Assembly (NCBI GenBank): GCA_963832165.1
Contig: CAWHTE010000002.1
Span: 288,001-352,000, forward strand
Reading direction: 5' to 3'
Source of the DNA: an uncultured delta proteobacterium
Lineage (GTDB): Bacteria; Myxococcota_A; UBA9160; SMWR01
Length of the DNA: 64,000 bases
The notes below the pieces were generated by a model. That model was given only the letters and a program-made list of their open reading frames with translations. It was not told the origin of the DNA and searched no databases. This document shows, one piece after another, positions 33,254 through 49,959 of the stretch. Both the position numbers and the translations under genes were made by a program. The stretch's first letter is position 1. Each line of letters opens with the position of its first letter.

Positions 33254-33295
33254 CTCACCATTCAACCACAGGATCGCAGCGTCGGCAGCGGTGGA

Positions 33296-35386
33296 TCAGT
33301 CCGCTTCCGGCGTTCCGCGCGCGACCGCGCGGCGCACGAGCTCTTCCTGGGCGGCGAGGCTGCGGCGCCGCGGAACGCGGTGCCACACGCCCTCGGCGTC
33401 GAGCTGCCACGCGAGCACGTCGTCGGCGAGACAGAGCTCGAGGAACTCGTCGATGCGCGCTGCGAGCGGAGCGGACTCCACCGGAACGACCACTTCGACG
33501 CGGCCCTCGAGATTTCGCGGCATCAAGTCGGCCGATCCGATGTAGTGGCGTGCTTCACCGTCGCAGCCGAAGCGGTAGACGCGCGAGTGCTCGAGGAAGG
33601 GCCCCACGATCGAGCGCACGCGGATCGTCTCGGAGAGGCCCGGGACGCCCGGGCGCAGGCAACAGACGCCGCGCACCACGAGATCGATCTCGACGCCGGC
33701 CTGCGAAGCCTCGTACAGCGCATCGATCAGCGGTCCGTCCGCGAGTCCGTTCACCTTGATCGCGATCCGCCCGCGATGCGCGCGCTCTCTCTCCCGCTCG
33801 ATCTCTTCGAGCAGCCGCGTGCGCAGTGATCGCGGCGCGACGAGCAACTTGCGATAGGCCCCCTGATTGCTGCAGCCGGTGAGATAGTTGAAGAGCTCGG
33901 CGGCGTCCGCCGCGAGCGCGTCGGAACAGCTGAACAGTCCGAGGTCGTCGTAGGTGCGCGCGGTCTGCGGGTGGTAGTTGCCGGTGCCGACGTGAACGTA
34001 GCGCCGAATGCCATCGGACTCGGCGCGCACCACGAGCGTGACCTTGCAATGGGACTTGAGCCCGACCACGCCGTACACGACGTGCACGCCGGCCTCTTCG
34101 AGCACGCGCGCGAGCTTGATGTTGGCCTGCTCGTCGAAGCGCGCCGTGAGCTCGACGAGCGTCACCACCTGCTTCCCGGCCTCGGCGGCCTCGATCAGGT
34201 TGCGCACCAGCGTGTTCTCGACTCCCGAAGTGCGATAGAGCGTGTGCTTGATCGCGAGCACCGCGGGGTCTTCGGCGGCCTGTGCGAGGAACGCCTCCGT
34301 GGAGTCGCCGAACGACTCGTAGGGGTGGTGCACGAGCACGTCGCGCTCGCGGATCGCCGCGAACAGATCCACGGTCCCGTCGACTCCGGGGACGAACGCG
34401 GGCGGCGTCACGGGCGTGTGGGCGGGCAGCTTCGCCTCGGGCCGATCGAGCGCGTGGATCTCCCAGAGCGAGCCGAGGTCGATCAGCTCGCGCGTCACGT
34501 AGAGGTCGTCGCTCGTGAGCTCGAGCTCCGCGAGCAGGAGATTGCGCACGCGCTCCGACATGCGATCGGTCACTTCGAGTCGCACGGCGGCGTTCATGCG
34601 CAGGCGGCGCTTGAGCCCGAACTCCACTGCCTGCAGCAGGTCTTCGGCATCCGTCTCGTCGAGTGCGAGGTCGGCGTCGCGCGTCACGCGGAACGGATTG
34701 CACGACACGATCTCCATTCCCGGAAACAGCGTCGGGGCTTGCGCCGCGATCAGCTCCTCGACGGGCAGGAATCCGCTGCCGCCCGGCAGCGCGATCCAGC
34801 GCGCGAACAGCGGCGGCACCTTGATCCGCGCGAAGCGGTGCGCCTGGGTCTCGAGATCGCGCACCACGACCGCGAGGTTCAGCGACAGGTTCGAGATGTA
34901 CGGGAAGGGATGCGAGGGATCGACCGAGAGCGGCGTCAGAACCGGGAAGATCCGCGTCTCGAACATGCGCGAGAGCTCGCGCTGCATCGCGGGCTCGAGC
35001 TCGTCCCAGCTGCAGAGATGGATCCCGAGATCGCGCAGCCGCGGGCCCAGATCCTTGTCGAGGATCTCGTCGCATCGCGCGACCTGCAGGGTCACGATCG
35101 GGCGGATCGCCGCGAGCTGTTCGGCAGGCGAACGCCCGTCGATCGAGCGCGCGCCGACCTCCGCGGCGATCTGGGTCTTGAGACCCGCGACGCGCACCTG
35201 GAAGAAGTGGTCGAGGTTGCGGCTCGCGATCGCGAGGAACTTCACGCGCTCGAGCACCGGCAGCGATTCGTCCGCCGCGAGCGCGATCACACGCGCGTTG
35301 AAATCGAGCCAGGTCAGCTCGCGATTGAAATAGAGCGGCAGATCGGGACGCGCAGCGTCGGCGTCGATCGGGGGAAGGCGCTCCAT
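33296..35386 (-). CDS. ppk1: Polyphosphate kinase 1
   Basis: YFNRELTWLDFN, HPFPYISNLS, HHPYESF, ARFDE, HVGTGNY, FLEHSR, GSADLM.RNL. Confidence 0.95.
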   Translation of the reverse strand: MERLPPIDADAARPDLPLYFNRELTWLDFNARVIALAADESLPVLERVKFLAIASRNLDHFFQVRVAGLKTQIAAEVGARSIDGRSPAEQLAAIRPIVTLQVARCDEILDKDLGPRLRDLGIHLCSWDELEPAMQRELSRMFETRIFPVLTPLSVDPSHPFPYISNLSLNLAVVVRDLETQAHRFARIKVPPLFARWIALPGGSGFLPVEELIAAQAPTLFPGMEIVSCNPFRVTRDADLALDETDAEDLLQAVEFGLKRRLRMNAAVRLEVTDRMSERVRNLLLAELELTSDDLYVTRELIDLGSLWEIHALDRPEAKLPAHTPVTPPAFVPGVDGTVDLFAAIRERDVLVHHPYESFGDSTEAFLAQAAEDPAVLAIKHTLYRTSGVENTLVRNLIEAAEAGKQVVTLVELTARFDEQANIKLARVLEEAGVHVVYGVVGLKSHCKVTLVVRAESDGIRRYVHVGTGNYHPQTARTYDDLGLFSCSDALAADAAELFNYLTGCSNQGAYRKLLVAPRSLRTRLLEEIERERERAHRGRIAIKVNGLADGPLIDALYEASQAGVEIDLVVRGVCCLRPGVPGLSETIRVRSIVGPFLEHSRVYRFGCDGEARHYIGSADLMPRNLEGRVEVVVPVESAPLAARIDEFLELCLADDVLAWQLDAEGVWHRVPRRRSLAAQEELVRRAVARGTPEAD

Positions 35387-35463
35387 CGGGGTCGGGCCTG
35401 CGGGTGCTGGGAGGGGAGGACCCAGTCTACCACTTCCCCCGGGGAACAAGCGAGCCGTGGTCG

Positions 35464-36189
35464 TTACGTTTCCGTGAACGCGGTCCCGCCGCGCGGCTCG
35501 ATCGCGTTCTCGGCGAGCCGATATCCAACCCCGCGAACCGTTTCCAGGTAGCTCCTCGCGGGTCCGAGCTTGCGCCGGATGCTCTTGATGTGCGCATCGA
35601 TTGCGCGCTCACTGCGGGGTTCGCGACCCGCCTGGAGACGGTCGATGAGCTGACTTCGGCGCACGACGCGCCCGGCCTGCGCGATCAGTGCGGAGAGCAG
35701 CTCGCGCTCGCGCGGTGTCAGCTCGACGCGCCGTCCGTCGGCGATCACGCGCCCGGTCCGCGGGTCGAGCTGGATCGCGCTGCTCCCGGGGGTGCGCGCC
35801 GTGGGCTCCTCCGCGCGCGGAACGAAGCCGCGGAGCACCGCCGAGACGCGCGCCCCGAGCTCGGGCGGGTAGAACGGCTTCGCGAGGAAGTCGTCGACGC
35901 CGGACTCGAACGCGAGCACGCGGTCGATCTCGCTCGCGCGGCTCGTCAGCACGATGATCGGAGTGGCCGCGATCGACGGAGACTCGCGCACGGTGCGGCA
36001 CAGGCCGAGCCCCGACTGGTCGGGCAGCACGAGCTCGACCAGGATCAGGTCGGGCGGGTCGTCGAGCGCCGAACGCAGCGCTTCTCGAGCGGTCGCAGCC
36101 TCGCGACACGACAGGTGTCGATTCGCGAGACACTCGCGGATCTCGGCACGGACGTCTTCGTCTTCGTCGACAACCAGGACCACTGCCAC
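35464..36189 (-). CDS. Atypical OmpR/PhoB-family regulator (Glu at the phosphoacceptor position)
   Basis: PDLILVELVLPD versus PDLLILDLMLPD in the local PhoB; winged-helix RAIDAHIKSIRRKLG..LETVRGVGY. Confidence 0.85.
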   Translation of the reverse strand: MAVVLVVDEDEDVRAEIRECLANRHLSCREAATAREALRSALDDPPDLILVELVLPDQSGLGLCRTVRESPSIAATPIIVLTSRASEIDRVLAFESGVDDFLAKPFYPPELGARVSAVLRGFVPRAEEPTARTPGSSAIQLDPRTGRVIADGRRVELTPRERELLSALIAQAGRVVRRSQLIDRLQAGREPRSERAIDAHIKSIRRKLGPARSYLETVRGVGYRLAENAIEPRGGTAFTET

Positions 36190-36238
36190 GCCGCTTCACA
36201 CTCGGGGAATTCCCAGTTCCTCACACAATCAAAACGCG

Positions 36239-36254
36239 ATGACGATGGCGTGAA
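36239..36254 (-). promoter_or_regulatory. Pho-box-like pair upstream of atypical regulator-ppk1
   Basis: Minus strand TTCAC-N6-GTCAT. Confidence 0.55.
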
Positions 36255-36420
36255 GGCCTTGGGACGTTTTCGCGCACAATCGGTATAGCGGGGGCAGGAA
36301 CAGTCCGATCGCGATCGGGTTGGACCGGGTGGATCGCCCCGAGCTCGCCGATCGGGCGCGTTTCGGGCCGGCTTCGGCGCGCGCGCAGCCTCCGCTGCCG
36401 GGCCCGCTGCCGTACGCCCC

Positions 36421-36621
36421 TCAGAGGACCGCCCGGAGCAGACGGCCCGCGAAGCCCCGATTCGCCGAGAGCACCTGCGCCTTGCGGTACTGCAATACGA
36501 GGCCGCGGGTCTCGCTGCGCCAGTCGCATTTTTCTGCGCGCGCCCGCGCGCGACGCGCAAGGCGCGCGGAGATCCCGTCGATCTTGGGCGCGAACACTTC
36601 GGTGAACAGAGCGATTCGCAT
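36421..36621 (-). pseudogene. Internally deleted GT4 glycosyltransferase (SqdX/PimB-like N- and C-termini fused)
   Basis: 66-aa frame: MRIALFTEVFAPKIDGISARL (GT4 start) joined directly to ARARAEKCDWRSETRGLVLQY (GT4 terminal helix). Confidence 0.7.
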
Positions 36622-36771
36622 GCCCGGAACATCGGCGCCCCATGCGTCGGTGGCGTGGGAGAGCGGTGAACTCGCGGGCAAGAGCGCGCGGCAGCCCGGC
36701 GGAGCCGATGTCACCGTTCGGTGACAAAGCGCAATCGCACCGGATCGCGACTCCTCGCGCAGTGCGTGGGG

Positions 36772-36799
36772 AGCGGGGGCTGCGGCCGCAGCCCCCGCT
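36772..36799. repeat. Perfect 28-bp palindrome
   Basis: AGCGGGGGCTGCGGCCGCAGCCCCCGCT equals its own reverse complement. Confidence 0.9.
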
Positions 36800-36999
36800 G
36801 ACCTCGCGCCCCGCTGGACGACGGCGGGGGGCGCCTGTCGTCCGTTCGGGTTCGCACTTCGCAGTCCGGCGTCTCGTCGGTTGGGATGGGGAGAGAAGGA
36901 AGAGACGCTAGGCCTACGCGAGATGTAACTTACGCATTGGACGTGTCGTTCGAGTGAAGAACACGGCGAGCTATCGTGACACGGTTCGGAGGGCACCCC

Positions 37000-37518
37000 G
37001 TGAAGACGCTCTGGCTGCTGCGACACGCAAAGGCGATCACGGGTGAAGGCATGCCCGACCGCGAGCGGTCGCTCAGCGCGCGCGGTCGCGAAGCGGCCGA
37101 GCGGATGGGCCGTTGTCTCGCAGAGCGCGGAGCGCGGCCCGACCTCGTGCTCTGCTCTCCGTCGGTCCGCACGCGCGAGACGCTGGAGCTCGCAGCCAAG
37201 GCGCTCGGCACCTCGCTCTCGGTCGAATTCGAGGAAGAGCTCTATCTCGCGAGCGCGGACGACCTGCTCGAGCGCATCGAGCTGGTGCCCGACGATGCGG
37301 CATCGGTTCTCCTGGTGGGGCACAACCCCGGCATCGAGGAGCTCGGGCTCGAGCTCGCCGGGCGCGGCGACTCCGGCGGGATCGAACGGATGCGCCACAA
37401 GTTTCCGACGGGGGCGCTGGCCGAATTCCGCGTCCATGCTGAGGAATGGCGCCGTTTCGCGCGCAAATGCGAGCTGATCGCGTTCGTGACGCCGAAGACT
37501 TTGTCCTCCGAGCGGTGA
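37000..37518 (+). CDS. sixA: Phosphohistidine phosphatase SixA family
   Basis: LLRHAKA, DRERSLSARG, CSPSVRTRET, LVGHNPG, FPTGALA. Confidence 0.88.
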   Translation: MKTLWLLRHAKAITGEGMPDRERSLSARGREAAERMGRCLAERGARPDLVLCSPSVRTRETLELAAKALGTSLSVEFEEELYLASADDLLERIELVPDDAASVLLVGHNPGIEELGLELAGRGDSGGIERMRHKFPTGALAEFRVHAEEWRRFARKCELIAFVTPKTLSSER

Positions 37519-37530
37519 TATCCTGCCGAG

Positions 37531-39079
37531 GTGGACACCCCCCGCGAGATCGAGCTCAAGCTCGACGCGTCGATCGAGGTCCTGCGGCGTCTTCAGCGCC
37601 ATCCGCTCGTTCGCAGCCACGCGCAGGGTCGCGCGCGATCCCAGTCGCTCGAATCGGTCTACTTCGACACGGAAGACCACGACCTCGCCGAGGCGAACCT
37701 GGGTCTGCGCGTGCGGCACACGGGCAAGCGGCGAGTCCAGACGCTCAAGGGCGAGCGCTCGTCGTCGGGTGGGTTGTTCGAACGCATCGAGGTCGAGGTC
37801 CCGATCGACGGGGACGAGCCCGACCTCGCGCTGATCTCCGATCCCGAGCTGCGAGCTCGGGTCGACGAAGCGGTGAATGGAAAACCGCTCGTCGAGGTGT
37901 TCCGGACCGAGTTCCGCCGCACGCGCCGCGTGCTGCGCAAGGGCGAGAGCGAGTGGACGATCGACCTCGACGCCGGCAGCATCGTCGCAGGCGAAGAGCG
38001 CGCTCCGATTCACGAGGTCGAGCTGGAGCTTCTCGCGGGTGAGCCCGCAAAGCTGTTCGAGTTCGCGCTGCTCTTGCAGGAGCGGCTCGATCTGCGGCCC
38101 GCGACGGTCAGCAAGGCGGAGCGCGGCTATGCGCTGGCGCGCGGAGAGCGCGCGAGCTCGTACTACGCGCCGCGCGTGCGACTCGACGCGCAGACGACGC
38201 TCGAGGACGGGCTCAGAGCGATCCTCTCGCACTGCCTCTCCCAATTTCACGAGGAACGCCGATTGCGCACGCAACGGGGTCGAGCCCGAAGGTGTGCACC
38301 AGATGCGCGTGGGCGTGCGCCGCATGCGAGCGGCATTCGCGCTGTTCGAGTCGCGTCTTCCGGCAGACCGCGTCCGCTACTTCCGCTCCGAGCTGCGCTG
38401 GCTCGGCCGAGAGCTCGGCGCGGCGCGCGATCTCGACGTGTTCACGCGCGGGCTGCTCGCGGACATCGAATCCCATCGGCCCGACGACGTCGCGCTCGAG
38501 CGCCTGCGCGTCGAGGCGCTGGCTCTGCGCGCCGAATGCTACGAGGGAGTTCGCACCTGCATCGACTCGCGGCGCTATGCGCGCCTCGTGCTGGAGCTCG
38601 GCGGGTGGCTCGCCGCGCGCGGGTGGCAGGAGAACGCGTCGCGCGACGACTCGATGCGCTGGCTCGAGCCCGCGCATACCTTCGCGGAGACCGAGCTCGA
38701 GCGCAGGCACCGCAAGATCGCCCGCCTCGCCGAGCGGATCGACGAATCCGTCGACGCGCGCCACGCACTGCGCATCGAGCTGAAGAAGCTCCGCTATGCC
38801 GGGGAGTTCTTTCGCGATCTCTACCCGCGCCACGGCGCCAAGCGCTTCCTGCGCCGGATCGCGCGCGTGCAGAACGCGCTCGGGCACATGAACGACGTCG
38901 CCACCGCAGAGCGGATCCTCGCTCTGCTCCTGGCGCGGCTCGGCCCGGATCGCATGCGCCACCACGACCGCGCCGCGGGCTTCGTCGAGGGGTGGGCCGC
39001 GGAGCTCGCGGCGAACGCGCTGCGCGAGACCGAGGATGCCTGGCAGCGCCTCGAGCGCGCGCAACCGTTCTGGCTCTAG
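37531..39079 (+). CDS. CYTH + CHAD domain protein (polyphosphate-binding / triphosphatase); frameshift near 38246
   Basis: REIELKL, YFDT, QTLK, EVELEL (CYTH); HQMRVGVRRMR, ARDLDVF, HALRIELKKLRY, QNALGHMND (CHAD). Confidence 0.88.
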
Positions 39080-39082
39080 GAA

Positions 39083-39120
39083 TTCGCACGATCGTCACGA
39101 AATCGCCGTGGCTTTCTCAC
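39083..39120 (+). promoter_or_regulatory. Pho-box-like array upstream of the small ORF
   Basis: TTCGC(39083)-GTCAC(39094)-GCCGT-CTCAC(39116), 11-bp period. Confidence 0.55.
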
Positions 39121-39168
39121 CCGATCGCCCCACGCGAAAACCGATGTTTTTGTAGGTTCGGGGCCATC

Positions 39169-39423
39169 ATGAAGCGTCTGGGTTCGCCTATCACGACGCG
39201 CTCCGCCTTTGCGGGGCTCGCAGGAGTGCTCGCGCTCGGGATCGCGTTCTACAGCCGCTCGGCCGTGGGGCGGATCGGCTCGCCCGATCCCGGCCCGTCG
39301 CCCGACCCGCTCGTCGACACCCTCGATGAGGACGAGCTCGTGAAGTTCGCCGTGATCGACATGGTCGATGCGCTCGATCGCGTCGTCGATGCGAACGCGG
39401 CCGCGAGCGACGTCCAGGAGTAG
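39169..39423 (+). CDS. 84-aa membrane or exported microprotein with a TonB-receptor plug-like segment
   Basis: Hydrophobic AFAGLAGVLALGIAFY, Pro-rich linker, then LVDTLDEDELVKFAVIDMVDALDRV, 15/25 identical to the receptor segment at 40056..40130. Confidence 0.7.
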   Translation: MKRLGSPITTRSAFAGLAGVLALGIAFYSRSAVGRIGSPDPGPSPDPLVDTLDEDELVKFAVIDMVDALDRVVDANAAASDVQE

Positions 39424-39452
39424 ATAGGGCTTCTCGAGATCGCGGCGCAGAC

Positions 39453-39490
39453 TTCGCGCCCGTGTCATGCGATCGCCCCGGACTCCTCAC
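39453..39490 (+). promoter_or_regulatory. Pho-box-like array upstream of the TonB receptor
   Basis: TTCGC(39453)-GTCAT(39464)-GCCCC-CTCAC(39486), same architecture as the 39083 array. Confidence 0.55.
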
Positions 39491-39539
39491 GTGAACGCCC
39501 CACCTGGCGCAGAACCTCGCACTAGGGTTTCGCGACTTC

Positions 39540-42500
39540 ATGCGCCCCCATGTGTCGATAGTGTGGCGACGGTGCGGAGACGTCCGCGCGCGGGTCGCGC
39601 TTCGAAGCGCGGTGGTCGCCGCGATCGCGTGGCTCGTGGTGAGCGCGAGCCCACCCGCGATCGCGCAGACGAGCGCAGCGGAAGGGCGCATCGCGGGACG
39701 CGTTACCGATGCCGCGTCGGGCGCGGCCCTCTCCGGAGCGACGATCGTGCTGAGTGCTCCGGGAGCGGGCCAGCTCTTGCGCACGAGCGGCGCGGACGGC
39801 GGCTTCTTGTTCGAGTCCGTGGGTGCGGGCACCTATCGGCTCGACCTCACACTCTGGGGGTACCAGGCTGCGAGCATCGCGCAGCTCACCGTGCAGGCGG
39901 GCCAGGAGATCCGCGCAGACCAGAAGATGTCGGCGCGCCCCGCCGAGGAGTCCGATCGGGTTTCGTCGACCGCTGGCGTCGAGGAGATCGTCGTCCACGG
40001 CGATCCGACCAAGGATCTGCTCAGCTCGATCGAGACGCGTTCGCAGTCCGATCAGCTCGTCAACGTGCTAGGCGCCGAAGACCTCTCGAAGTTCGCGGTC
40101 GTCGACATGGCCGACGCGCTCAAACGCGTCGCGGGCGTGAACGTCGTGGAGGGTCAGTTCGCGATCGTGCGCGGGCTCGAGGACCGCTACAGCAGCACGC
40201 TCTACAACAGCGCTCCGGTGCCGAGCCCCGACCCCGACCGCCAGTCGCCCCAGCTCGATCTGTTTCCGTCCGAGATCGTGAACAGCCTCGTGGTCTCGAA
40301 GACCTTCGGTCAGGAGCTGCCCAGCAACTCGTCGGGTGGCTCGATCGACATCCTCACGCCCGACCGCCACGAAGACGAGCTCGAGGTCTCGATCTCTGCG
40401 AAGACCGGCATCAACGAGAATGCCTACGATCGCTTCATCGAGCTCCGGCCCGGCTCGTCGATCGGAAAAGAGACGGATGGCGTCGACCTGCTCGAGCAGG
40501 AGTTCGGAGGCTACGTCAACGGGCGCACCAGCCTGCGCGGCCGCGAGATCCACTACAAAGCGGTCGCGAACTGGGGCACCGACTACGTCACCGAGGAGGG
40601 GTTCCAGGAGGGGCGACAGCCCGCGGTGCCGGGCAACTCGATCTTCTTCCCCGCCGGCGACCTCTCGTTCGGGCAGCTCGGCCTCAGTGACGGCCGCTTC
40701 GACCTCACCACGAGCGAGGGCGAAGAGCAGATGACCCTGTTCGGGACGTTCGGCTTCGACGTCGACGAGTTCAGCGATCACACGATCGACTTCTCGGCGT
40801 TCTACACGCGCAAGGACATCGACACGGTTCAGCTGCGCGAGTACGGCCATCTGCCCGGGTTCGATTACCCCGCCGTGAAGGCCGCAGTGCAGGCGGACCC
40901 CTTCGAATTCCCCAATTTCTCCCAGTTCCAGTCGAGGGCAACGTTCGACGCGTGGATCGTGAAGAAGGTCGGCCCGCTCGGCGAAACCCCGACGCGGACG
41001 ATCCCCTACTACGCGGCCTTCTTCGACAGCCGCTCCTTCGAATCGCGCCGCGACCTCCAGATCTACCAGATCAACGGCGACCACATCCTCGACCTGCTGA
41101 TCGACGGCCTCCATCTGAGCTGGGTGGGGAACTACGCGACGACGGCGCAGAACGAGAACTCGCTGGGCTCGCGCTTCTCGTTCGAGCCGTGCCGCAACGA
41201 CACCGTCGCTTCGCTGCGCTGCCCCACTGGCGTGACGCCCATCAACCAGAATTTCGACCTGATCCCGGCCTCGTTGCCGGTTCGCGAAGCCGCGCTCGCG
41301 CCCGGCCAGTATCTGGCGCGCAACGGCCTGTTCGGGAACCACAACGACATCGAGGAGGAGCAGTACTTCGGCCGCTTCGACGGCGACTACGAGCTCCTCC
41401 CGGCCCACTGGCTCACCGCGAACCTGAGCTCGGGGCTCTGGTTCGAGCACGCCGAGCGCGATGTGGATTCGAGCTTCCTTTCGGGCGACGGGCTCACGAT
41501 CAACTGCCCCGAGTCGTCTGGGTGCATCGGCACGGGCAGTACGCAGTACGTGATCTTCGCCGATACACCCGAGCAGCTCGGGGCCAGGATCTTCGGCACG
41601 GGTCTCCCGCGCACTACCGACGGCTCCTACGCCAATCAGCGGTCCACGACCAACGAGTCGACGCGGGAGATCCAGGCGATGCACGCCGGCGCCAAGGCGA
41701 CGTTCTGGGGGGACTTCGACCTCCTGGGCGGCGCGCGATTCGAGAACATCTTCATCGAGTCGAAGAACGATCCGTTCGTGCCGGGAGGCTTCTCACCCGA
41801 TCAATCGCCGCTGATCTTCCCGTCGAAGTACTTGTTCTTCGATCGCTTCGACAACCTCGATCGCGAGGGATTCATCCGCAATCCCCCGTTCAACAACGAG
41901 ATCCTGGGCATCGACGTTCCGGCCGGTCCGTGTCGCGACACGGCGGGCAATCCGATCCCCGGCGGCGGCGAGTGCGTCGACCTGATCGACGCCGCGGAGA
42001 TCGGGAGGCTCGTGAACGGCGACATCGACGAGAACAAGGTGCTGCCATCGGCAGGCCTCGCCTATCGCGCGTTCGACTGGCTGACGTTGCGCGGCGCCTA
42101 TTCCCAGACGGTGGCGCGCCCCTCGTTTCGCGAGCTCGGCTACTACGTCTCGGCCGAGCCCGGCACCGACGATCTCTCGATCGGCAATCCCCAGCTCGGA
42201 CTCTCGGACGTGGAGAGCTGGGACGCGCGCGCCGAGTTCGTGTGGGGCAACTACTCGGATCTCTTCGCGGTCAGCGTATTCCAGAAGGACATCGAGGATC
42301 CGATCGAGCAGATCGTGATGCGCGACCCCGGTGTGTTCGAGGACACCGCGACCGACACGTTTCGGACCTTCTTCAACAACCCGAACGAGGCGACGATCCG
42401 CGGCATCGAACTCGAGGCGCGCAAGAATCTCGGCTTCCTGACCTTCGATTGGCTCGAGACCGAGGTGCCGGGCCGCGAGTTCCTGGGTGTACTCGAGTAC

Positions 42501-43004
42501 TTCTCGATCGGAGGCAACTACTCCTTCTTCGACGCCGAGGTGCGCCGCACCGAGGCCGAGCTGGCGCGCTCCGTAGGGTTCTTCGGAAACCCGCTGGGTG
42601 GGGTCCCTTTTCCGGGCCTCGAGCGCAAGCGTCGGCTCTACGCCCAGCCCGAGTGGATCGCCAACGCGGACATCTCGTTCGACCATCTCGGCTGGGGCAC
42701 CAAGGTGACGCTGGCGTATTTCGCGATCAGCGATCTGCTCGACGCCGCTGGTGTGGCCGCGCCGAGCGCGAGCAGCGCAATCGACACGTTCGTGCTCGAC
42801 CGCTACGTGGACTCGTTCGAGCAGCTCGACCTGATCGTGTCCCAGGAGCTCTGGAGAGGCTTGACCGTCAAGCTCACCGTCAAGAACCTCACCGACAGCA
42901 AGCGCGGGATCATCTACGACCCCGAGCAGACGCTGCACCGGGTTGCCGAGCGCGAGTACCGCAGAGGGCGCGACTACGGGCTCTCGCTCCGCTGGACGTT
43001 CTAG
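39540..43004 (+). CDS. TonB-dependent receptor with N-terminal carboxypeptidase-regulatory-like domain
   Basis: GRIAGRVTDAASG, TonB-box-like VEEIVVHG, plug DALKRVAGV..VRGLEDRY..PSPDP..LDLFPS, YSQTVARPSFREL, C-terminal Phe. Start uncertain. Confidence 0.92.
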   Translation: MRPHVSIVWRRCGDVRARVALRSAVVAAIAWLVVSASPPAIAQTSAAEGRIAGRVTDAASGAALSGATIVLSAPGAGQLLRTSGADGGFLFESVGAGTYRLDLTLWGYQAASIAQLTVQAGQEIRADQKMSARPAEESDRVSSTAGVEEIVVHGDPTKDLLSSIETRSQSDQLVNVLGAEDLSKFAVVDMADALKRVAGVNVVEGQFAIVRGLEDRYSSTLYNSAPVPSPDPDRQSPQLDLFPSEIVNSLVVSKTFGQELPSNSSGGSIDILTPDRHEDELEVSISAKTGINENAYDRFIELRPGSSIGKETDGVDLLEQEFGGYVNGRTSLRGREIHYKAVANWGTDYVTEEGFQEGRQPAVPGNSIFFPAGDLSFGQLGLSDGRFDLTTSEGEEQMTLFGTFGFDVDEFSDHTIDFSAFYTRKDIDTVQLREYGHLPGFDYPAVKAAVQADPFEFPNFSQFQSRATFDAWIVKKVGPLGETPTRTIPYYAAFFDSRSFESRRDLQIYQINGDHILDLLIDGLHLSWVGNYATTAQNENSLGSRFSFEPCRNDTVASLRCPTGVTPINQNFDLIPASLPVREAALAPGQYLARNGLFGNHNDIEEEQYFGRFDGDYELLPAHWLTANLSSGLWFEHAERDVDSSFLSGDGLTINCPESSGCIGTGSTQYVIFADTPEQLGARIFGTGLPRTTDGSYANQRSTTNESTREIQAMHAGAKATFWGDFDLLGGARFENIFIESKNDPFVPGGFSPDQSPLIFPSKYLFFDRFDNLDREGFIRNPPFNNEILGIDVPAGPCRDTAGNPIPGGGECVDLIDAAEIGRLVNGDIDENKVLPSAGLAYRAFDWLTLRGAYSQTVARPSFRELGYYVSAEPGTDDLSIGNPQLGLSDVESWDARAEFVWGNYSDLFAVSVFQKDIEDPIEQIVMRDPGVFEDTATDTFRTFFNNPNEATIRGIELEARKNLGFLTFDWLETEVPGREFLGVLEYFSIGGNYSFFDAEVRRTEAELARSVGFFGNPLGGVPFPGLERKRRLYAQPEWIANADISFDHLGWGTKVTLAYFAISDLLDAAGVAAPSASSAIDTFVLDRYVDSFEQLDLIVSQELWRGLTVKLTVKNLTDSKRGIIYDPEQTLHRVAEREYRRGRDYGLSLRWTF

Positions 43005-43035
43005 CGCTCCTCGACGGAGCCGGCCCCCACAGGGC

Positions 43036-43095
43036 GGCACCAACAGTCCACGCGTCCTGCACGAGAACGTCACGGTTTTGCGGCCGACCAGTCAT
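43036..43095 (+). promoter_or_regulatory. Pho-box-like array upstream of the secreted beta-helix protein
   Basis: GGCAC(43036)-TCCAC-TGCAC-GTCAC(43069)-x-GTCAT(43091), 11-bp period. Confidence 0.6.
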
Positions 43096-43211
43096 TTCGG
43101 GCTGCGAACTTGCCGCCGCCGCAACCGGGTTCTTTGGCCCGCGCTGGCTCCCGTTCCTGTAGCAACGCAATCACCAGGGATCGAAACCACACAATGATGG
43201 GGCAGTTAGTC

Positions 43212-44981
43212 ATGCGAAGAGTTCTCCCCTTCCTGTCCGCTCTCGCGCTGGCCTGGGTCGGCGTCGCCGGCAGCGCGAACGCGCAGACGTGCACCACGAC
43301 GGTCGGCGTCGACGACGCGAACGCCGCCAATGACATCATCAACACCAGCACCACCTGGAGCGGTACGGTCTGCCTCGAGGCGCCGATCTTCGTGAACGTG
43401 GGCGCCGTGCTGACGATCCAGCCGGGCACGATCGTGCGCGGCCAGCCGCGACAGGCCGTTGCGGGAGCCCTTCCGGGATCACCGGGCGCGCTCGTCGTGA
43501 CCCAGGGCGCCAAGATCATCGCCGACGGCAGCCCGCAGGCCCCGATCGTCATGACGACCGGCGCCATGGACAACGACAGCGACGGTGTCTGCGACAACTT
43601 CGACGCCGACGCGTTCCTCGACGACTACCCCGGCTACGATCCGGCGTCCCTGCCGGCGCTCGTCGCCGATGCGACGCCGACGTTCTGCGACGACACTCCG
43701 ACCACGGCGCCGATGCCGCCGCTCAACGCGAACGGCGTTCAGAACGTCTCGATGTGGGGCGGGTTCGTGTTGCTGGGCCGCGCTCCGACCAACCTCGCCA
43801 ACGAGCAGGCCACGCCGAGTGGTCACGGCACCGGATTCCTCGAGGGCGTCACGCTTCCGGGCGTAACCCCGAACGACGCGGTCTGCGGTGGCGTGGAGCC
43901 GCACGACTCGTCCGGCATCGTCCGCTACGTCTCCGTGCGCCACGCAGGGGACGAGCTCGGCGCCGGAAACGAGCTGAACGGCGTGACGCTGTGCGGCGTC
44001 GGCGACAATACGATCTTCGAGTTCAACGAGGTCTACGCGAACTTCGACGACGGCTTCGAGTGGTTCGGCGGCACCGTGCACGCCAACCACCTCGTGGTGA
44101 CCTACGTGGGCGACGACCTGCTCGACATCGACTGGGGCTACACGGGCTCGATCCAGTTCGCGTTCACGCTGGCGACGTTCTTCAACCAGGACGGCGGCGC
44201 TGTGTTCGGATCGCTCGGTGGCGACAAGCAGGGCGAGCTCGACGGCGATGACTACCTCAACAACGACAACACGAACATCGACAGGAACGTCAACGTGCGC
44301 ACGGCCTACTCGGCCGCGGTATTCGCGGGCGATGCACTCGCGCAGGCGGTGGACTCGCGCGAGAAGACGCCGTGGCCGCTCTCGGGCGCGTACATCGCCA
44401 ACTGGACCGGCATCGGTGCCGTACCGGACGGGGGAAACCCGGCCGTCGCGCCCTCCACGGGCCCGCGGCTCGGCGTGCAGATGCGCCAGGGCTTCGCAGG
44501 CCAGGTGGTGAACAGCGTGTTCGTGAACACCTCGAACCCGTGCCACGTGGTGAGCACGAGCACGGGACAGGCACCGGCCGGGCACGACGCGACCACGCAC
44601 GTCACGCTGGGCCTCGCGCGCTGGATCACCAACTCGTGTGACGGCTCGTCCGCGCTCGCGGCGGGCGTCGGTGCCGCTACGGGTTCGGCCGACCAGGGCG
44701 ACACGTTCTCGCAGTTCGACACGGGCGCAACGGCCTGCGCGCTGAACATCCGCGCCACGGGCGGCGGCTTCGCGGGCCTCGTCGACGAGAACCCGAACTT
44801 CAATGCGAAGACGCTCACGGGCGGTGGCTACGACCCGCGTCCGGCCGGAGCGGGTGCGGATTGCGGCGTGACGCCGCGGCTTCCGGGGCTCGACCGCGTG
44901 AACTACCGCGGCGCGTTCGTCGCGGGGGCGCCGCTGTGGACCGACGGCTGGACGGTGCTCGACCAGGCGGGCGCGCTCTGA
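43212..44981 (+). CDS. Secreted probable beta-helix protein of the family found beside TonB receptors
   Basis: Signal peptide (SANA|Q); LTIQPGT, GSPQAPIVMT, WGGFVLLGRAP, DSSGIVRYV, NELNGVTL, DDGFEWFGGTV, YRGAF..WTDGWT. Confidence 0.78.
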   Translation: MRRVLPFLSALALAWVGVAGSANAQTCTTTVGVDDANAANDIINTSTTWSGTVCLEAPIFVNVGAVLTIQPGTIVRGQPRQAVAGALPGSPGALVVTQGAKIIADGSPQAPIVMTTGAMDNDSDGVCDNFDADAFLDDYPGYDPASLPALVADATPTFCDDTPTTAPMPPLNANGVQNVSMWGGFVLLGRAPTNLANEQATPSGHGTGFLEGVTLPGVTPNDAVCGGVEPHDSSGIVRYVSVRHAGDELGAGNELNGVTLCGVGDNTIFEFNEVYANFDDGFEWFGGTVHANHLVVTYVGDDLLDIDWGYTGSIQFAFTLATFFNQDGGAVFGSLGGDKQGELDGDDYLNNDNTNIDRNVNVRTAYSAAVFAGDALAQAVDSREKTPWPLSGAYIANWTGIGAVPDGGNPAVAPSTGPRLGVQMRQGFAGQVVNSVFVNTSNPCHVVSTSTGQAPAGHDATTHVTLGLARWITNSCDGSSALAAGVGAATGSADQGDTFSQFDTGATACALNIRATGGGFAGLVDENPNFNAKTLTGGGYDPRPAGAGADCGVTPRLPGLDRVNYRGAFVAGAPLWTDGWTVLDQAGAL

Positions 44982-45028
44982 GAGCTGCGCAGCCATCGCG
45001 TCACAACCCCAATTCAAGGTGAAACGAC

Positions 45029-45919
45029 ATGAACAGAAAACTGCGCGTGATCGCTCCGCTCGTCGCCGTCGCGGTGCTCGCGGCCGTCTCGGCGAGCGCG
45101 GCGGAGGTCGCCGCGGGTTGGGACTTCTCCCAGTACCGCGGCAACAACAGTCTGGCTCCGCTCGGGAGCACCCTCCCCGCGAACTACTCGGATTCCGATC
45201 CGACGTTCAACGCGGGTAGCGGTTCGGCGACATTCGGGACGCTCTACTTCGATGGAACGAACGGGTCGAGCTCCACGAGCACGGCCTTCCTGCCGACGGC
45301 GGGCACGATGAACTGCCAGCGCCTTCCGGTCGGTGGACCGCTCAAGCCTTCGGGCTGCGCGACCCCGAACGTCGACGGTCCGATCCGGTCGAACAAGCAC
45401 GAGGCCTGGTCGGATCCCGGTGAGGTCTCGTTCGACGCTCACTCCGTCTTGCGGTCCGAGGGGCAGCAGTATCAGAACCTGCTCGCGATGACCGCAAACG
45501 ACAACGTGAGCGTGGTGTTCAAGGCCGACCTCGGCGCCGGCAACACGGGAAGCGGCTGGGGCGTGAGCTTCGGCGGCAAGACGTTCACGGGGACGGGCGA
45601 CAGCGGCGGACCGCTCTCGTGCGATCCCGCAGGCGCGAGCCAGTGCAGCACGAGCATCGGCATCGAGCACTCGACGGATGGCGTGAGCTACGCGAGCGCC
45701 GGCTCCGTGCAGCTCACGTCTGCGGATGCCCGCTATCAGGTCGCGGTGGGGGCGGGGTCCAGCCAGGCCAAGTACGTCCGCCTGAACCTCGCGCCGGGCG
45801 GCGGCGGAGCCCAGCCGATGATCGACAACGTGGCGATCACGCTTCCCGAAGCGGGATCGACGGTGATGTTGCTCTCCGGAACGCTGATGATCCTGTTCCT
45901 GCGGCGACGCAGCTGCTGA
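45029..45919 (+). CDS. Surface protein with PEP-CTERM-like sorting signal
   Basis: Signal peptide; C-terminal TLPEAG + hydrophobic helix + RRR. Confidence 0.75.
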   Translation: MNRKLRVIAPLVAVAVLAAVSASAAEVAAGWDFSQYRGNNSLAPLGSTLPANYSDSDPTFNAGSGSATFGTLYFDGTNGSSSTSTAFLPTAGTMNCQRLPVGGPLKPSGCATPNVDGPIRSNKHEAWSDPGEVSFDAHSVLRSEGQQYQNLLAMTANDNVSVVFKADLGAGNTGSGWGVSFGGKTFTGTGDSGGPLSCDPAGASQCSTSIGIEHSTDGVSYASAGSVQLTSADARYQVAVGAGSSQAKYVRLNLAPGGGGAQPMIDNVAITLPEAGSTVMLLSGTLMILFLRRRSC

Positions 45920-45943
45920 GCGGAATGGAACCGGAGTGATTGC

Positions 45944-45982
45944 GGAGCCGCCACCTCCTCGGAGGTGGCGGCTCCCTTTCTT
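45944..45982 (+). terminator. Rho-independent terminator
   Basis: Inverted repeat GGAGCCGCCACCTCC / GGAGGTGGCGGCTCC followed by CTTTCTT. Confidence 0.8.
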
Positions 45983-46006
45983 CTCACCGACCTTCTCGCG
46001 CCACCA

Positions 46007-46780
46007 ATGCGCCCCTCCCTGTTTGCCCTCCTGCCGCTGCTCCTGATCCTCGGAGCTACCGCGGGTGACGGTTCGCCCGTCACCGCCGCGAACCTGCTCG
46101 AGCGCGAGCGCTTCTGGCCGTACCGCATCGTGTTGACCGAGGCCTGGCGACCGCCAGGGCGTGAGGCACCGCTGACCGCCGGAACGCTAGGTGTGCTGAT
46201 CCGCGTCGAGCGAGGCGGCGCTGCGCGGATCGACTTCTCAGCCGATGGGAAGTACGAGGTCCCCGTCGAGAAGACCGATCTCGTCGAGAATGCCAATCGC
46301 ATCCGGCGCGGTGAGCTCGCCAAGAGCGAGCCCAATTTCATCCACGCGATCGCGACGAGACTCGTCGACTCTGCTGCCGATTCGCTCGCGGGCCTGCCCC
46401 CGGAGCGTGTCGCCGGGCGCCCGGGATTTCTCTGTGTGTTCGCGGATCCGAGTGCGAAGGAGTTCGGCGATCTCGTTGCGGCGCTGCGGCCGCTCAATGA
46501 CCGACACCGGGTGATGACGATTCTCTTCGCGCAAGGCGCCCACCCGGACGAGGAGCTGCGCGAACGCCTGCGCTCGCTCGGATGGACCGTGCCCTTCGTC
46601 TACGACTTTCTCGCGGAGCCATACACGCGCACGCTGCTCGCGGAGAACACTGCGTTCCCGGCCCTGCTGCTCCAGACGGACGAAGGGCGCGTGATCGACC
46701 AGCAAGCGGGGGGGCCAGACGCAGAGCCGAAGCTCCGCGCGGCGCTCGACGCAGCGTTTGGAGGGAGTTCGAAACCATGA
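46007..46780 (+). CDS. Exported hypothetical protein
   Basis: Signal-like MRPSLFALLPLLLILGATAG; GC3-biased ORF; overlaps the next start codon. Confidence 0.65.
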   Translation: MRPSLFALLPLLLILGATAGDGSPVTAANLLERERFWPYRIVLTEAWRPPGREAPLTAGTLGVLIRVERGGAARIDFSADGKYEVPVEKTDLVENANRIRRGELAKSEPNFIHAIATRLVDSAADSLAGLPPERVAGRPGFLCVFADPSAKEFGDLVAALRPLNDRHRVMTILFAQGAHPDEELRERLRSLGWTVPFVYDFLAEPYTRTLLAENTAFPALLLQTDEGRVIDQQAGGPDAEPKLRAALDAAFGGSSKP

Positions 46781-47298: not shown

Positions 47299-47332
47299 CC
47301 CCTCATCGAATCGACTCGATCGCGCCTTTTTC

Positions 47333-47348
47333 TTCACACATTCGTCAC
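47333..47348 (+). promoter_or_regulatory. Pho-box-like pair upstream of the porin
   Basis: TTCAC(47333)-N6-GTCAC(47344). Confidence 0.6.
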
Positions 47349-47441
47349 AGAGACGACCCGAATCCTTGCGCGCGCGTAGATAGCGTTCGGCGACTTCGGA
47401 CCCCCGAAGCGCTCCACACGAACATCCGAAGGAGGCCATTC

Positions 47442-48788
47442 GTGAAGGCGATCGTGTGCTCGTTCCGGACCGTGGCTCTCGTGATCCTGGTCGTTGCGGC
47501 GATCCCCGCACCAGCTCTGGCGGAGGACAAGGACCCGACGCTGTCCGAGATCGTGAACATCCTGCACGAGAAGGGTCTGATCGACGACGAAGAGCACGAG
47601 GCGCTCGCGGCCAAGGCGTCCAAAGAGCATGCAAAGGACAGCTGGGCTGATCGGATCAACGTGTTCGGCGACCTGCGCGGGCGCATGGAGATGTACGACT
47701 ACGAGAAGGACATCTACACCCAATCGACGGGTGCGAGTCTCAACGACCGCTATCGCGCCCGCTACCGCGCGCGTCTAGGCGTGAACGCGAAGGTGGTGAG
47801 CCGAGCGTCGGTGACGCTCGGTCTCGCGAGCGGCGGCGCCGACCCGCGCAGCGCGAACCAGACGCTCGGCAGCGGAACCGACTTCGACAAGGACGAGATC
47901 CGGCTCGACCTCGCGTACGCCACGATCTCGCCGTTCGCCGACGGCGTGCTGCCGGGAATCGAGGGCGGCTATCTCGGCATCGACATCGGCAAGGTGAAGA
48001 ATCCGTTCATCTGGAAGCAGCTCGGCCTCGACAACCTGCTCGTCGACAACGACCTCAATCCCGAGGGTGCGAACCTGCGCATCACGGGCGGTGCCGGTCC
48101 GGTGATGATGTTCGCCAACGGTGGCGTCTACGTGATCGACGAGAACTCCGTGTCGAAGGATCCGATGTACGCGGGGGGCCAGCTCGGCGGATCTGCGAAG
48201 CTCGCCGACTGGGCCTCCCTCGGCGCGCGCGGGACGCTCTACCACTTCTTCTCGCTCGACGACGACTTCTTCGCGCGCGGGGCGACGAACCTCGCGAATC
48301 CCGGCGGAACCGGCGGCAACATCATCGACGGCCTGTCGCGGCGGAATGGCTCGATCCAGGTCGCCGAGACGTCCGCGTTCGTCACACTCGTGCCGCACGC
48401 GCTGGTCCCAGTGACCTTCTACGGAACGTTTGCCACCAACCTCTCCGCGCGCAATTCGCTGATCGCCACCACCGTCGGTCGCGAGGCGGACGCCTGGACG
48501 TTGGGCTTGTTCGTGGGCGACAAGGTGACACTGCTCCGCGTCGGAGGTGCGATCTACTACGTCGAGGCGAACGCGATGCCTTCGATGTTCCTCGACAGCG
48601 ACACCCTCGACGGATTCTCGAACCGCAAGGGCTACGCGGCGACCATCGAGCGCCAGCTGTTCGAGGGTGTCGACCTCCGGCTGGCGGGCTTCTTGTCGGA
48701 TCGGATCGAGGGCGGAACCGCGTTCGCCAACTCGGGACCCTCGTCCGAGCGCTTCCGCGGCCAGGCCGACCTGATTTTCAAGTTCTGA
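47442..48788 (+). CDS. Putative outer-membrane porin (probably phosphate-related)
   Basis: RBS AAGGAGG; ILHEKGLI, WADRINVFGDLRGR, RYRARLG, DPRSANQTLG, DLNPEG, C-terminal QADLIFKF. Confidence 0.8.
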   Translation: MKAIVCSFRTVALVILVVAAIPAPALAEDKDPTLSEIVNILHEKGLIDDEEHEALAAKASKEHAKDSWADRINVFGDLRGRMEMYDYEKDIYTQSTGASLNDRYRARYRARLGVNAKVVSRASVTLGLASGGADPRSANQTLGSGTDFDKDEIRLDLAYATISPFADGVLPGIEGGYLGIDIGKVKNPFIWKQLGLDNLLVDNDLNPEGANLRITGGAGPVMMFANGGVYVIDENSVSKDPMYAGGQLGGSAKLADWASLGARGTLYHFFSLDDDFFARGATNLANPGGTGGNIIDGLSRRNGSIQVAETSAFVTLVPHALVPVTFYGTFATNLSARNSLIATTVGREADAWTLGLFVGDKVTLLRVGGAIYYVEANAMPSMFLDSDTLDGFSNRKGYAATIERQLFEGVDLRLAGFLSDRIEGGTAFANSGPSSERFRGQADLIFKF

Positions 48789-48809
48789 GTCTGGCGGAGC
48801 GCGCGGTCG

Positions 48810-48847
48810 TTCACCGTCACGTCACGTGATCGTGCGATATCGGTCAT
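48810..48847 (+). promoter_or_regulatory. Pho box array of pstS
   Basis: TTCAC(48810)-GTCAC(48821)-x-GTCAT(48843), 11-bp period. Confidence 0.7.
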
Positions 48848-48906
48848 GTGCCCTGCCTAGAGTCGACTCGCTTCTCGTCCACCATCGACCAACAGGGAGG
48901 GGGAAA

Positions 48907-49959
48907 ATGTCCCTCACGACTCTCACCAGGAGTGCCGTGTTCGCGGCGGCCGCCATTCTCGTGGCGGTGCCCGCGGGTGCTCGCGACCAGATCCGGATCG
49001 TCGGCTCCTCGACCGTGTACCCGTTTGCGACCGCGGTCGCCGAGGAGTTCGGCCGCAACAGCAAATTCAAGACGCCGATCATCGAGAGCACCGGCACCGG
49101 CGGCGGAATGAAGCTGTTCTGCGCCGGCGTAGGCGTGCAGCACCCCGACGTCACCAACGCCTCGCGCCGGATCAAGCAGACCGAGGTCGATCAGTGCACC
49201 GCCAACGGCGTCAAGGCGATCACTGAAGTGAAGATCGGCTACGACGGGATCGTGATCGCGAACGCGAAGAAGTCGACGCGCTACAAGGTCACGCTGCAGC
49301 AGCTCTTCCTCGCGCTCGCGAAGCAGATCCCCGCGCCGGGTGGCGGACTGGTCCCGAACCCGAACAAGACCTGGAAGGACGTCGACCCCGCGCTGCCGAA
49401 CGTGAAGATCGAGGTGCTCGGTCCGCCGCCCACGTCGGGCACGCGCGACGCGTTCAACGAGCTCGTGATCGAAGGCGGCTGCAACGCGTATCCCGAGCTC
49501 AAGGCGCTCAAGGACAAGGACGAGGCCAAGTACAAGTCGATCTGCCTCGCCGTGCGCGAGGACGGCGCCTACGTCGAGGCGGGCGAGAACGACAACCTGA
49601 TCGTGCAGAAGCTCGTCGCGAATCCCAACGCACTCGGCGTGTTCGGCTTCAGCTTCCTCGACCAGAACACCGACCGGCTCCAGGGCAGCGTCGTCGGCGG
49701 CACGGAGCCCACGTTCGAGAACATCGCGAGCGGAAAGTACCCGGTGTCGCGCCCGCTGTTCATCTACGTGAAGAACGCACACGTCAAGTCGATCCCGGGC
49801 ATCCGCGAGTACGTGACCGAGTTCACGAGCGAGAAGGCGATCGGAGAGGAGGGCTACCTCTCCGAGCGAGGCCTGATCCCGGCGCCGAAGGCGGAGCGGG
49901 AGAAGTACCGCACCGACGCCACGAGCCTCACTGAACTGAAGATGACAGCGGGCAAATAG
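48907..49959 (+). CDS. pstS: Phosphate ABC transporter substrate-binding protein
   Basis: RDQIRIVGSSTVYPF, ESTGTGGG, GPPPTSGTRDAF, YPVSRPLFIYVK. Confidence 0.95.
   Translation: MSLTTLTRSAVFAAAAILVAVPAGARDQIRIVGSSTVYPFATAVAEEFGRNSKFKTPIIESTGTGGGMKLFCAGVGVQHPDVTNASRRIKQTEVDQCTANGVKAITEVKIGYDGIVIANAKKSTRYKVTLQQLFLALAKQIPAPGGGLVPNPNKTWKDVDPALPNVKIEVLGPPPTSGTRDAFNELVIEGGCNAYPELKALKDKDEAKYKSICLAVREDGAYVEAGENDNLIVQKLVANPNALGVFGFSFLDQNTDRLQGSVVGGTEPTFENIASGKYPVSRPLFIYVKNAHVKSIPGIREYVTEFTSEKAIGEEGYLSERGLIPAPKAEREKYRTDATSLTELKMTAGK

What the first reader, a model, noticed from the sequence alone, without database searches (positions are those of the whole stretch)
39083..40130. Microprotein carrying a copy of the neighbouring TonB receptor's plug segment
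Seen: the 84-aa ORF 39169..39423 has a hydrophobic helix, a Pro-rich linker containing PSPDP (also present in the receptor plug), and LVDTLDEDELVKFAVIDMVDALDRV (39310..39384). This aligns without gaps to the receptor's LVNVLGAEDLSKFAVVDMADALKRV (40056..40130), 15/25 identical. Several differences are synonymous or conservative, which fits selection on the protein better than decay. The ORF and the receptor each have a promoter array of the same design (TTCGC-GTCAy-GCC-CTCAC, 11-bp period). Known: this segment starts the plug domain just downstream of the TonB box and belongs to the subdomain remodelled by TonB pulling. Inference: a membrane-tethered plug mimic could act as a decoy, chaperone or regulator of a phosphate-starvation TonB receptor. 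I know of no described example. The alternative is a collapsed remnant of a duplicated receptor gene.
Basis: partly seen in the sequence, partly recalled or inferred. Interest (0 to 1): 0.82.

Follow-up and report, generated by a model that had tools for sequence, protein, structure and literature searches.

The report
Exported spare piece of transporter plug
An uncultured bacterium carries a small gene that is a trimmed copy of the start of its neighbouring outer-membrane nutrient transporter; it belongs to a conserved, apparently undescribed family of small proteins that may be exported to seal or tune that transporter's gate during phosphate starvation.

Summary
The 84-aa ORF (39169-39423) and its promoter are a copy of the 5' end of the adjacent TonB-dependent receptor gene. 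Codons 24-76 align without gaps to receptor residues 149-201 (TonB box, linker, first plug strand and helices). It is not a one-off remnant: 36 small proteins (63-96 aa, median pairwise identity 54%) share the design and form one clade that sits with this receptor's subgroup. They keep a hydrophobic export-type N-terminus and the plug helices, have lost the TonB box, and end 7-16 residues after the plug motif. A second genome has the gene on the receptor's contig, six locus tags away. The family was not found in 224 other species genomes of the class. The PSPDP match is coincidental, and a cleavable signal peptide is likelier than a membrane tether. Best mechanism (about 40%): a co-induced periplasmic 'spare plug segment without a handle' that occupies the site vacated when TonB pulls the receptor's own segment, sealing or damping the transporter. 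Expression, export and binding are not shown. The closest functional precedent is phage T5 Llp on FhuA, which is unrelated in origin.

The parts
39083..39131 (+). P1: 11-bp-period direct-repeat array (Pho-box-like; label recalled) upstream of the small ORF; a copy of the receptor promoter
   Evidence: second-best site in the genome for a matrix trained on relatives' receptor promoters
39132..39168 (+). Leader between P1 and the ATG, homologous to the receptor's leader
   Evidence: alignment score 20; 3 of 1000 shuffles reach it
39169..39423 (+). Small ORF, 84 aa; member of a family of 36 small proteins
39169..39246 (+). Codons 1-26: basic N-terminus, hydrophobic run and G-x-A; signal-peptide-like (inferred, no predictor run)
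   Evidence: 490 of 496 residues in columns 13-26 hydrophobic or small, none charged; G-x-A in 32 of 36
39238..39309 (+). Codons 24-47: degenerate copy of the receptor's TonB box and linker
   Evidence: 41/72 nt, 3/24 aa at the fixed offset
39310..39396 (+). Codons 48-76: copy of the first plug strand and two helices; the conserved core of the family
   Evidence: profile-profile probability 97%, E 9e-11
39453..39501 (+). P2: 11-bp-period array upstream of the receptor
   Evidence: best site in the genome
39540..43004 (+). TonB-dependent receptor, 1154 aa (CarboxypepD_reg 51-130, Plug 169-267, barrel)
   Evidence: Pfam; fold matches to solved TonB-dependent transporters
39984..40142 (+). Donor segment in the receptor: residues 149-201 (TonB box inferred from position, linker, plug start)
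43194..44981 (+). Secreted-type 595-aa protein that usually follows this receptor; has its own 11-bp array at 43035-43095
   Evidence: present near the receptor in 9 of 13 relatives' loci; array; no Pfam family above cut-off
47334..49959 (+). Putative porin and PstS-type binding protein, start of the pst genes (phosphate-uptake context)
   Evidence: Pfam Porin_5 and PBP_like_2; 11-bp array at 48809-48847
33296..39079 (.). Upstream phosphate-related genes: polyphosphate kinase (-), response regulator (-), histidine phosphatase (+), CYTH-CHAD (+, frameshifted in this assembly)
   Evidence: Pfam, ORF list

Best explanation
The gene arose once, by duplication of the promoter and 5' end of this phosphate-cluster TonB receptor, with loss of the CarboxypepD domain and of everything after the second plug helix; it has since been kept by selection (about 88% confidence in this part). 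Shown: homology, family, conservation pattern, promoter copy. Inferred: it is induced together with the receptor under phosphate starvation and exported by Sec, probably cleaved after G-x-A to a periplasmic peptide of about 40-60 aa. The peptide keeps the first strand and two helices of the force-labile plug subdomain but has no TonB box. When TonB pulls the receptor's own segment out, the spare segment can dock on the exposed plug remainder. Having no handle, it cannot be pulled out in turn, so it seals or jams the channel and damps transport or outer-membrane leak.
For: Family of 36 small proteins with one design, one clade at 100/98 support, grouped with receptors G000, L049, L050 and L051 at 100/97. 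Parsimony changes per column are 3.1 in core positions 57-72 against 8.7 in 34 other well-filled columns (columns are not independent). L57, F60, D67 and A68 are invariant in 36 of 36; V63, D64, M65, R71 and V72 are held in 33-35 of 36; these positions are also conserved in class in 20 receptors. The hydrophobic run has no charged residue in 496. The TonB box is degenerate (3/24 aa in box plus linker). The promoter copy is retained. In a second, named genome the small gene (TMA33708.1, tag _09270), the receptor's N-terminal piece (TMA33713.1, _09300) and the porin (TMA33714.1, _09305) share a 31,664-base contig length and near-consecutive accessions. About 50 residues after the TonB box unfold under TonB force and refold (PMC5413942 passages). 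A small periplasmic protein can trap a non-native plug state (Llp, PMC9586334 passages).
Against: No expression, export or binding data. The copy covers only about two thirds of the labile subdomain (estimate from the BtuB numbering), and the receptor's covalently attached segment should out-compete a free peptide. The core is more acidic than the receptor's (net charge -1 to -6 against 0 to -3; receptor K195 is D in 26 of 36), which may point to another partner. Adjacency is not conserved: no small-type gene in the DNA held around 32 metagenome receptor loci or 13 relatives' loci, including the three closest receptors. Context is known for only 2 of 36 clusters. In the second genome the receptor is annotated as a frameshifted 268-aa piece, although an in-frame allele exists in the same cluster. 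This window's copy is one of the more diverged members (branch 0.43), and its dN/dS against the receptor is 0.97 overall.
Confidence: 0.4

Rival explanations
1. Decoy or adaptor for a partner of this plug segment (TonB, the TPR protein of the ExbB-ExbD-TonB-TPR operon, a periplasmic chaperone or protease, or an incoming phage or bacteriocin protein) rather than a ligand of the receptor itself.
For: The segment is exposed in the periplasm when unfolded. The cognate ExbB/ExbD/TonB/TPR genes lie directly upstream of the receptor in most relatives and on contig C3 in this genome. Conserved positions 57, 60, 64, 67/68 and 71 fall on one helix face in the single-chain model (helix 54-82).
Against: The TonB box, the known TonB-binding element, is the part that was lost. 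The conserved residues mirror those that the receptors conserve. No partner was tested.
Confidence: 0.2
2. Neofunctionalised exported or inner-membrane-anchored peptide: the copied helix is used as an acidic amphipathic element for another phosphate-starvation task (metal binding, envelope interaction), no longer acting on the receptor.
For: Family-wide shift to acidic residues. The isolated chain is modelled as one long helix, not helix-turn-helix (pLDDT about 80-90 in 51-80). Position relative to the receptor differs between the two genomes with context.
Against: It stays in the receptor's gene cluster in both genomes, and the conservation ends where plug homology ends.
Confidence: 0.2
3. 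Non-functional scar of an old duplication or rearrangement of the receptor block, surviving as an open frame in one narrow lineage.
For: Narrow distribution: none of 224 other class genomes and none of 400 other genomes in a phylum sample. Overall dN/dS 0.97 against the receptor. Protein collections contain only intact frames, so broken copies would be invisible. G013 has CYTH-CHAD directly followed by the receptor with one array and no small gene.
Against: Members differ down to 34% identity yet keep an uncharged hydrophobic run, G-x-A, an invariant core and tails of 7-16 aa; linker indels of several lengths (10-24 residues) are all in frame. The promoter copy still scores near the receptor's.
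Confidence: 0.1
4. The function lies at DNA or RNA level: a second PhoB-type promoter that boosts or titrates receptor expression, or a transcript that sponges a regulator of the receptor mRNA, the reading frame being incidental.
For: P1 is well preserved and lies 370 bases upstream of P2 on the same strand. Twelve of 36 members have an N-terminal extension that resembles a translation of this leader.
Against: Conservation follows protein chemistry (hydrophobicity, helix face). In the second genome the gene is not directly upstream of the receptor.
Confidence: 0.08

Closest known systems
TonB-dependent receptor plug domain (Pfam PF07715), force-labile N-terminal subdomain (Hickman et al. 2017, PMC5413942; passages read)
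   Same: Direct homology to the first strand and two helices of the plug of the adjacent receptor.
   Different: A free-standing gene; about one third of the plug; no barrel, no CarboxypepD domain, degenerate TonB box; no member reaches the Pfam cut-off (best E 0.043 in 1 of 36).
Phage superinfection-exclusion lipoproteins Llp (T5) and Cor acting on FhuA (PMC9586334, passages read; 10.64898/2026.03.26.714494, abstract read)
   Same: Small periplasm-facing proteins that bind a remodelled plug and jam a TonB-dependent transporter: the working principle proposed here.
   Different: Llp and Cor are phage-encoded lipoproteins, not derived from the plug as far as the passages read and recall go. This family lies in a chromosomal phosphate cluster, has no lipobox cysteine (Cys in 1 of 36) and is a copy of its putative target.
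microProteins (truncated paralogues that regulate their parent proteins; concept recalled, mostly plant transcription factors)
   Same: Small protein made of one interaction segment of a larger parent gene, arising by duplication and truncation.
   Different: Bacterial and exported; the target would be an intramolecular gate interface of an outer-membrane transporter; a regulatory effect is not shown.

Membership tests
TonB-dependent receptor (for the small protein) | C-terminal beta-barrel | tested here: not met
   All 36 members end 7-16 residues after the plug motif; no longer form scored (weak evidence by the tool's own note).
TonB-dependent receptor (for the small protein) | Complete plug domain above the PF07715 cut-off | tested here: not met
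   0 of 36 at cut-off; best E 0.043.
TonB-dependent receptor (for the small protein) | TonB box upstream of the plug | tested here: not met
   The acidic start of the receptor's box is replaced by the end of the hydrophobic run; the box position is inferred from the plug alignment.
Fragment of this receptor's plug (homology) | Significant alignment to the plug N-terminus, with shared derived residues | tested here: met
   hhalign 97%, E 9e-11; D-M at 64-65 shared with the G000/L049-L051 receptors; tree grouping 100/97.
Llp/Cor superinfection-exclusion lipoproteins | Lipoprotein signal with cysteine | tested here: not met
   Cys in 1 of 36 members.
Llp/Cor superinfection-exclusion lipoproteins | Phage-encoded | tested here: not met
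   Lies in a chromosomal phosphate cluster; no relative confirmed among 595 candidate stretches in viral contigs.
Llp/Cor superinfection-exclusion lipoproteins | Binds the periplasmic face of the plug and blocks the transporter | not testable with these tools
   Needs binding and transport assays.
microProtein (truncated-paralogue regulator) | Small, single-segment paralogue of a larger protein in the same genome | tested here: met
   also linked in a second genome.
microProtein (truncated-paralogue regulator) | Regulates the parent by taking the place of its interaction segment | not testable with these tools
   No functional data.
Sec-exported peptide (signal peptidase I) | Basic n-region, hydrophobic h-region, small residues at -3/-1 | tested here: inconclusive
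   Pattern met by inspection (median uncharged run 16 aa; G-x-A in 32 of 36); no signal-peptide predictor was run, and an uncleaved anchor is not excluded.
Pho regulon member | 11-bp direct-repeat PhoB boxes in the promoter | tested here: inconclusive
   11-bp arrays at P1, P2, before the secreted protein and before pstS; that PhoB binds them rests on the recalled consensus and on context.

The most novel reading that the evidence does not exclude
A host-encoded family of exported 'handle-less plug' microproteins, born from their own target gene, that regulate a TonB-dependent transporter by swapping into the force-labile plug site opened by TonB: a gate controlled by a trans-acting copy of its own gate segment.
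Probability: 0.38. Interest if true: 0.86.

Novelty: new variant of a known kind. Interest (0 to 1): 0.68.

Why it matters
How the TonB-pulled plug opens, how long it stays open and how it re-closes are still argued over. A natural peptide that copies the labile segment but lacks the TonB box is a ready-made probe of that intermediate, and suggests a design rule (own segment minus handle) for locking any TonB-dependent transporter for structural study. It would also be a bacterial, envelope-located case of a microprotein born from its target, with origin, promoter and conservation pattern all traceable. If it proves unrelated to gating, it remains an undescribed small-protein family and a clear case of gene birth from a receptor fragment.

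Tried and rejected
Complex prediction of receptor residues 200-1154 with small-protein residues 36-78: no answer (score 0.00 in both runs, controls not folded); it counts neither way. The receptor model left the plug unresolved (pLDDT under 50 over most of the first 120 of 1006 residues), so the segment's contacts could not be read from it. Single-sequence word searches missed the family: 1 of 14 candidates, none confirmed in metagenome contigs (601 stretches) or genome contigs (599); my early 'singleton remnant' reading was dropped. P0002 (1809-aa repeat protein) was dropped as unrelated. The profile found no confirmed locus in genome contigs (29 stretches) or viral contigs (595). Sequencing runs: no RNA holder listed. 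Contigs of 4 DNA runs gave only short pieces, among them 39072-39221 with 7 differences and 39459-39684 with none; no piece spans the ORF. ESM Atlas gave leads only: 0.82 to small 'plug domain-containing' clusters for P0022, and 0.90 or less to unnamed clusters for the window's protein. The first promoter patterns had a wrong spacing and found nothing useful; redone. Rejected: chance similarity; an assembly duplicate (the copies differ at about a third of their bases); PSPDP homology; N-termini of receptors cut by contig ends (members leave the receptor sequence at the same point and end in their own tails). Literature searches (an open-licence library only) listed no stand-alone plug-segment protein; most subscription papers and the bioRxiv supplements could not be seen.
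Full report
Observation. The ORF at 39169-39423 encodes 84 aa, and 39310-39384 matches 40056-40130 at 15/25 aa and 55/75 nt without gaps. Against the other 1128 in-frame positions of the receptor the segment scores 25.3 +/- 4.3, maximum 37, so chance is excluded. Holding the offset fixed, the match runs further upstream: codons 24-47 agree with receptor residues 149-172 at 41/72 nt (background 23.0 +/- 4.0; 0 of 1129 offsets reach it) but at only 3/24 aa. Codons 1-23 show nothing at that offset (19/69), and similarity fades after codon 76. The small gene therefore copies the receptor's TonB box (position inferred), linker and plug start. High GC at third positions makes dS an underestimate, but these figures alone do not show selection.

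Promoters and context. Both genes are preceded by five units with 11-bp period in the same register, 370 bases apart, and the two regions align through to the ATG (score 70; shuffles 17 +/- 7). A matrix built only from 8 relatives' receptor promoters (8 of 16 upstream regions examined gave a site) ranks P2 (30.8) and P1 (25.7) first and second in the 5.5-Mb genome, the next site scoring 13.2. Arrays of the same period precede the downstream secreted protein and pstS. The neighbourhood holds polyphosphate kinase, a response regulator, a histidine phosphatase, CYTH-CHAD, a porin and a PstS-type protein. That PhoB binds these arrays is inferred from this context and from the recalled Pho-box period. 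The receptor is a TonB-dependent transporter by Pfam and fold, and is the only close copy among 9 plug-bearing genes of the genome. Its likely ExbB-ExbD-TonB-TPR operon is on contig C3 here, whereas most relatives carry it directly upstream of the receptor.

A family, not a singleton. Word-based searches found only the protein itself, and relatives' receptors have no such gene upstream: G013 has the same sixA, CYTH-CHAD, receptor order with a single array and no insert. A full phmmer scan of 1.84 billion representatives returned 9 hits: the query, 7 other proteins of 63-96 aa, and one unrelated repeat protein that I dropped. A profile of the 8 small ones found 36 proteins among 8000 candidates scored. 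Pairwise identity runs from 34% to 100%, median 54%. All have a hydrophobic run, a linker, the plug motif and a tail of 7-16 residues. Mean pairwise identity by region is 0.66 (hydrophobic run), 0.38 (box and linker, gaps counted as differences), 0.62 (strand and first helix), 0.78 (positions 60-72) and 0.21 (tail). Parsimony changes per column are 3.1 in positions 57-72 against 8.7 in 34 other well-filled columns. In columns 13-26, 490 of 496 residues are hydrophobic or small and none is charged. G-x-A closes the run in 32 of 36, and only 1 of 36 has a cysteine. On 54 aligned columns the 36 small proteins form one side of a branch against 46 receptor segments (100/98), and group with four receptors, G000, L049, L050 and L051 (100/97). 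Few columns and an unsettled bootstrap make the inner forks rough. The window's gene is about equally similar to all four receptors (core 55, 51, 50 and 50 of 75 nt), so the duplication is about as old as that subgroup. No member matches a Pfam family consistently. No longer form scored among 8000 candidates, which is weak evidence.

Distribution and linkage. Profile searches found the small gene only in G000 among 193 order, 225 class and 401 phylum-sample genomes; the other listed matches lay in long, receptor-type frames at 42 bits or less, against 94-108 bits for the small gene. Many of these genomes are incomplete. A scan of all 119 loci held, including 32 metagenome receptor loci with up to 3 kb upstream, found no small-type gene outside G000. 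In the three closest receptors the porin gene lies directly upstream, divergently. One other member has context through public accessions: TMA33708.1 (locus tag E6J87_09270, labelled Deltaproteobacteria bacterium) shares a contig length of 31,664 bases with the receptor's N-terminal piece TMA33713.1 (_09300) and the porin TMA33714.1 (_09305). By tag order the small gene is six tags from the receptor start, on the side away from the porin. I could not read that contig, so order and strand are inferred. There the receptor is annotated as a frameshifted 268-aa piece; an in-frame allele exists in the same cluster. So the gene stays in the receptor's cluster in 2 of 2 genomes with context, but not in a fixed position; 34 of 36 clusters have no context.

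Mechanism. Force spectroscopy shows that about 50 residues after the TonB box unfold when TonB pulls, opening a channel, and that the subdomain can refold (PMC5413942, passages; PMC11658791, passages and section 27). The small protein copies roughly the first two thirds of that stretch, keeps the residues that the receptors keep, and has turned the TonB box into the end of an export-type hydrophobic run. I propose that it is co-induced, exported and probably cleaved after G-x-A, and that it docks on the plug remainder when the receptor's own segment is out. Without a box it cannot be extracted, so it would seal or jam the channel. Steps shown: origin, conservation, promoter, linkage. Steps inferred: expression, export, cleavage, binding and sign of the effect. 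Against it: the attached segment should compete well, the family core is more acidic than the receptor's, the isolated chain is modelled as one helix, and the window's copy is among the more diverged. Rivals are a decoy for a partner of the segment (0.2), a neofunctionalised peptide (0.2), a scar (0.1) and a DNA- or RNA-level role (0.08).

Comparison with what is known. It is a homologue of a plug fragment but not a TonB-dependent receptor. It may work like phage T5 Llp, which binds a non-native FhuA plug from the periplasm and is proposed to jam it in a TonB-dependent intermediate (PMC9586334, passages; 10.64898/2026.03.26.714494, abstract), but it is neither a lipoprotein nor phage-borne. 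In design it fits the recalled microProtein concept. Six literature searches listed no stand-alone plug-segment protein; the library lacks most subscription papers, and bioRxiv supplements were closed. An earlier scan note (e1-3011171) describes a receptor-start copy as a recombination scar in another genome; that origin is plausible here too, but a scar does not explain the patterned conservation in 36 proteins.

Verdict. A real, apparently undescribed, lineage-restricted family of small proteins derived from the gate segment of a phosphate-cluster TonB receptor and very probably under selection. Function is unproven; the handle-less plug model is the best guess at about 0.4. Novelty: new variant of a known kind. 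Interest 0.68.

Noticed in passing
window 37531-39079 (+): The CYTH-CHAD gene is split by a frameshift near 38200-38250; it is one 519-aa frame in G013 (L047). The glycoside-hydrolase-like gene at about 31896-33265 (-) also appears in several frames. These may be indel errors of this assembly.
   Followed up: partly
L051 3279-3300: The receptor is frameshifted inside the plug in two protein records (P0059, P0060), while P0061 of the same cluster reads on in frame: a polymorphic or erroneous frameshift.
   Followed up: partly
G000:C3:104700-110100: TonB-TPR-periplasmic protein-ExbB-ExbB-ExbD-ExbD cluster resembling the one that precedes this receptor in relatives, here detached from the receptor (gene labels inferred from similarity and recall).
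   Followed up: partly
window 43194-47298 (+): The block of secreted 595-aa protein, PEP-CTERM-like protein (label recalled from its C-terminus; no Pfam hit), 271-aa protein and 173-aa protein travels with the receptor in many relatives and has no Pfam family above cut-off.
   Followed up: no
L042 (G053) receptor start: This receptor lacks the CarboxypepD domain and has tandem repeats after its signal peptide; its promoter resembles P1.
   Followed up: no
L049-L051 against window 39540-48788: In the closest relatives the receptor is divergent from the porin-pstS genes, whereas here it lies upstream on the same strand: the receptor block has been rearranged, which may be how the small gene arose or moved.
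   Followed up: partly
ESM Atlas clusters: Clusters of 73-99 aa named plug-domain-containing proteins, two mostly from Campylobacterota, scored 0.82; they may be fragments or independent small plug proteins.
   Followed up: no
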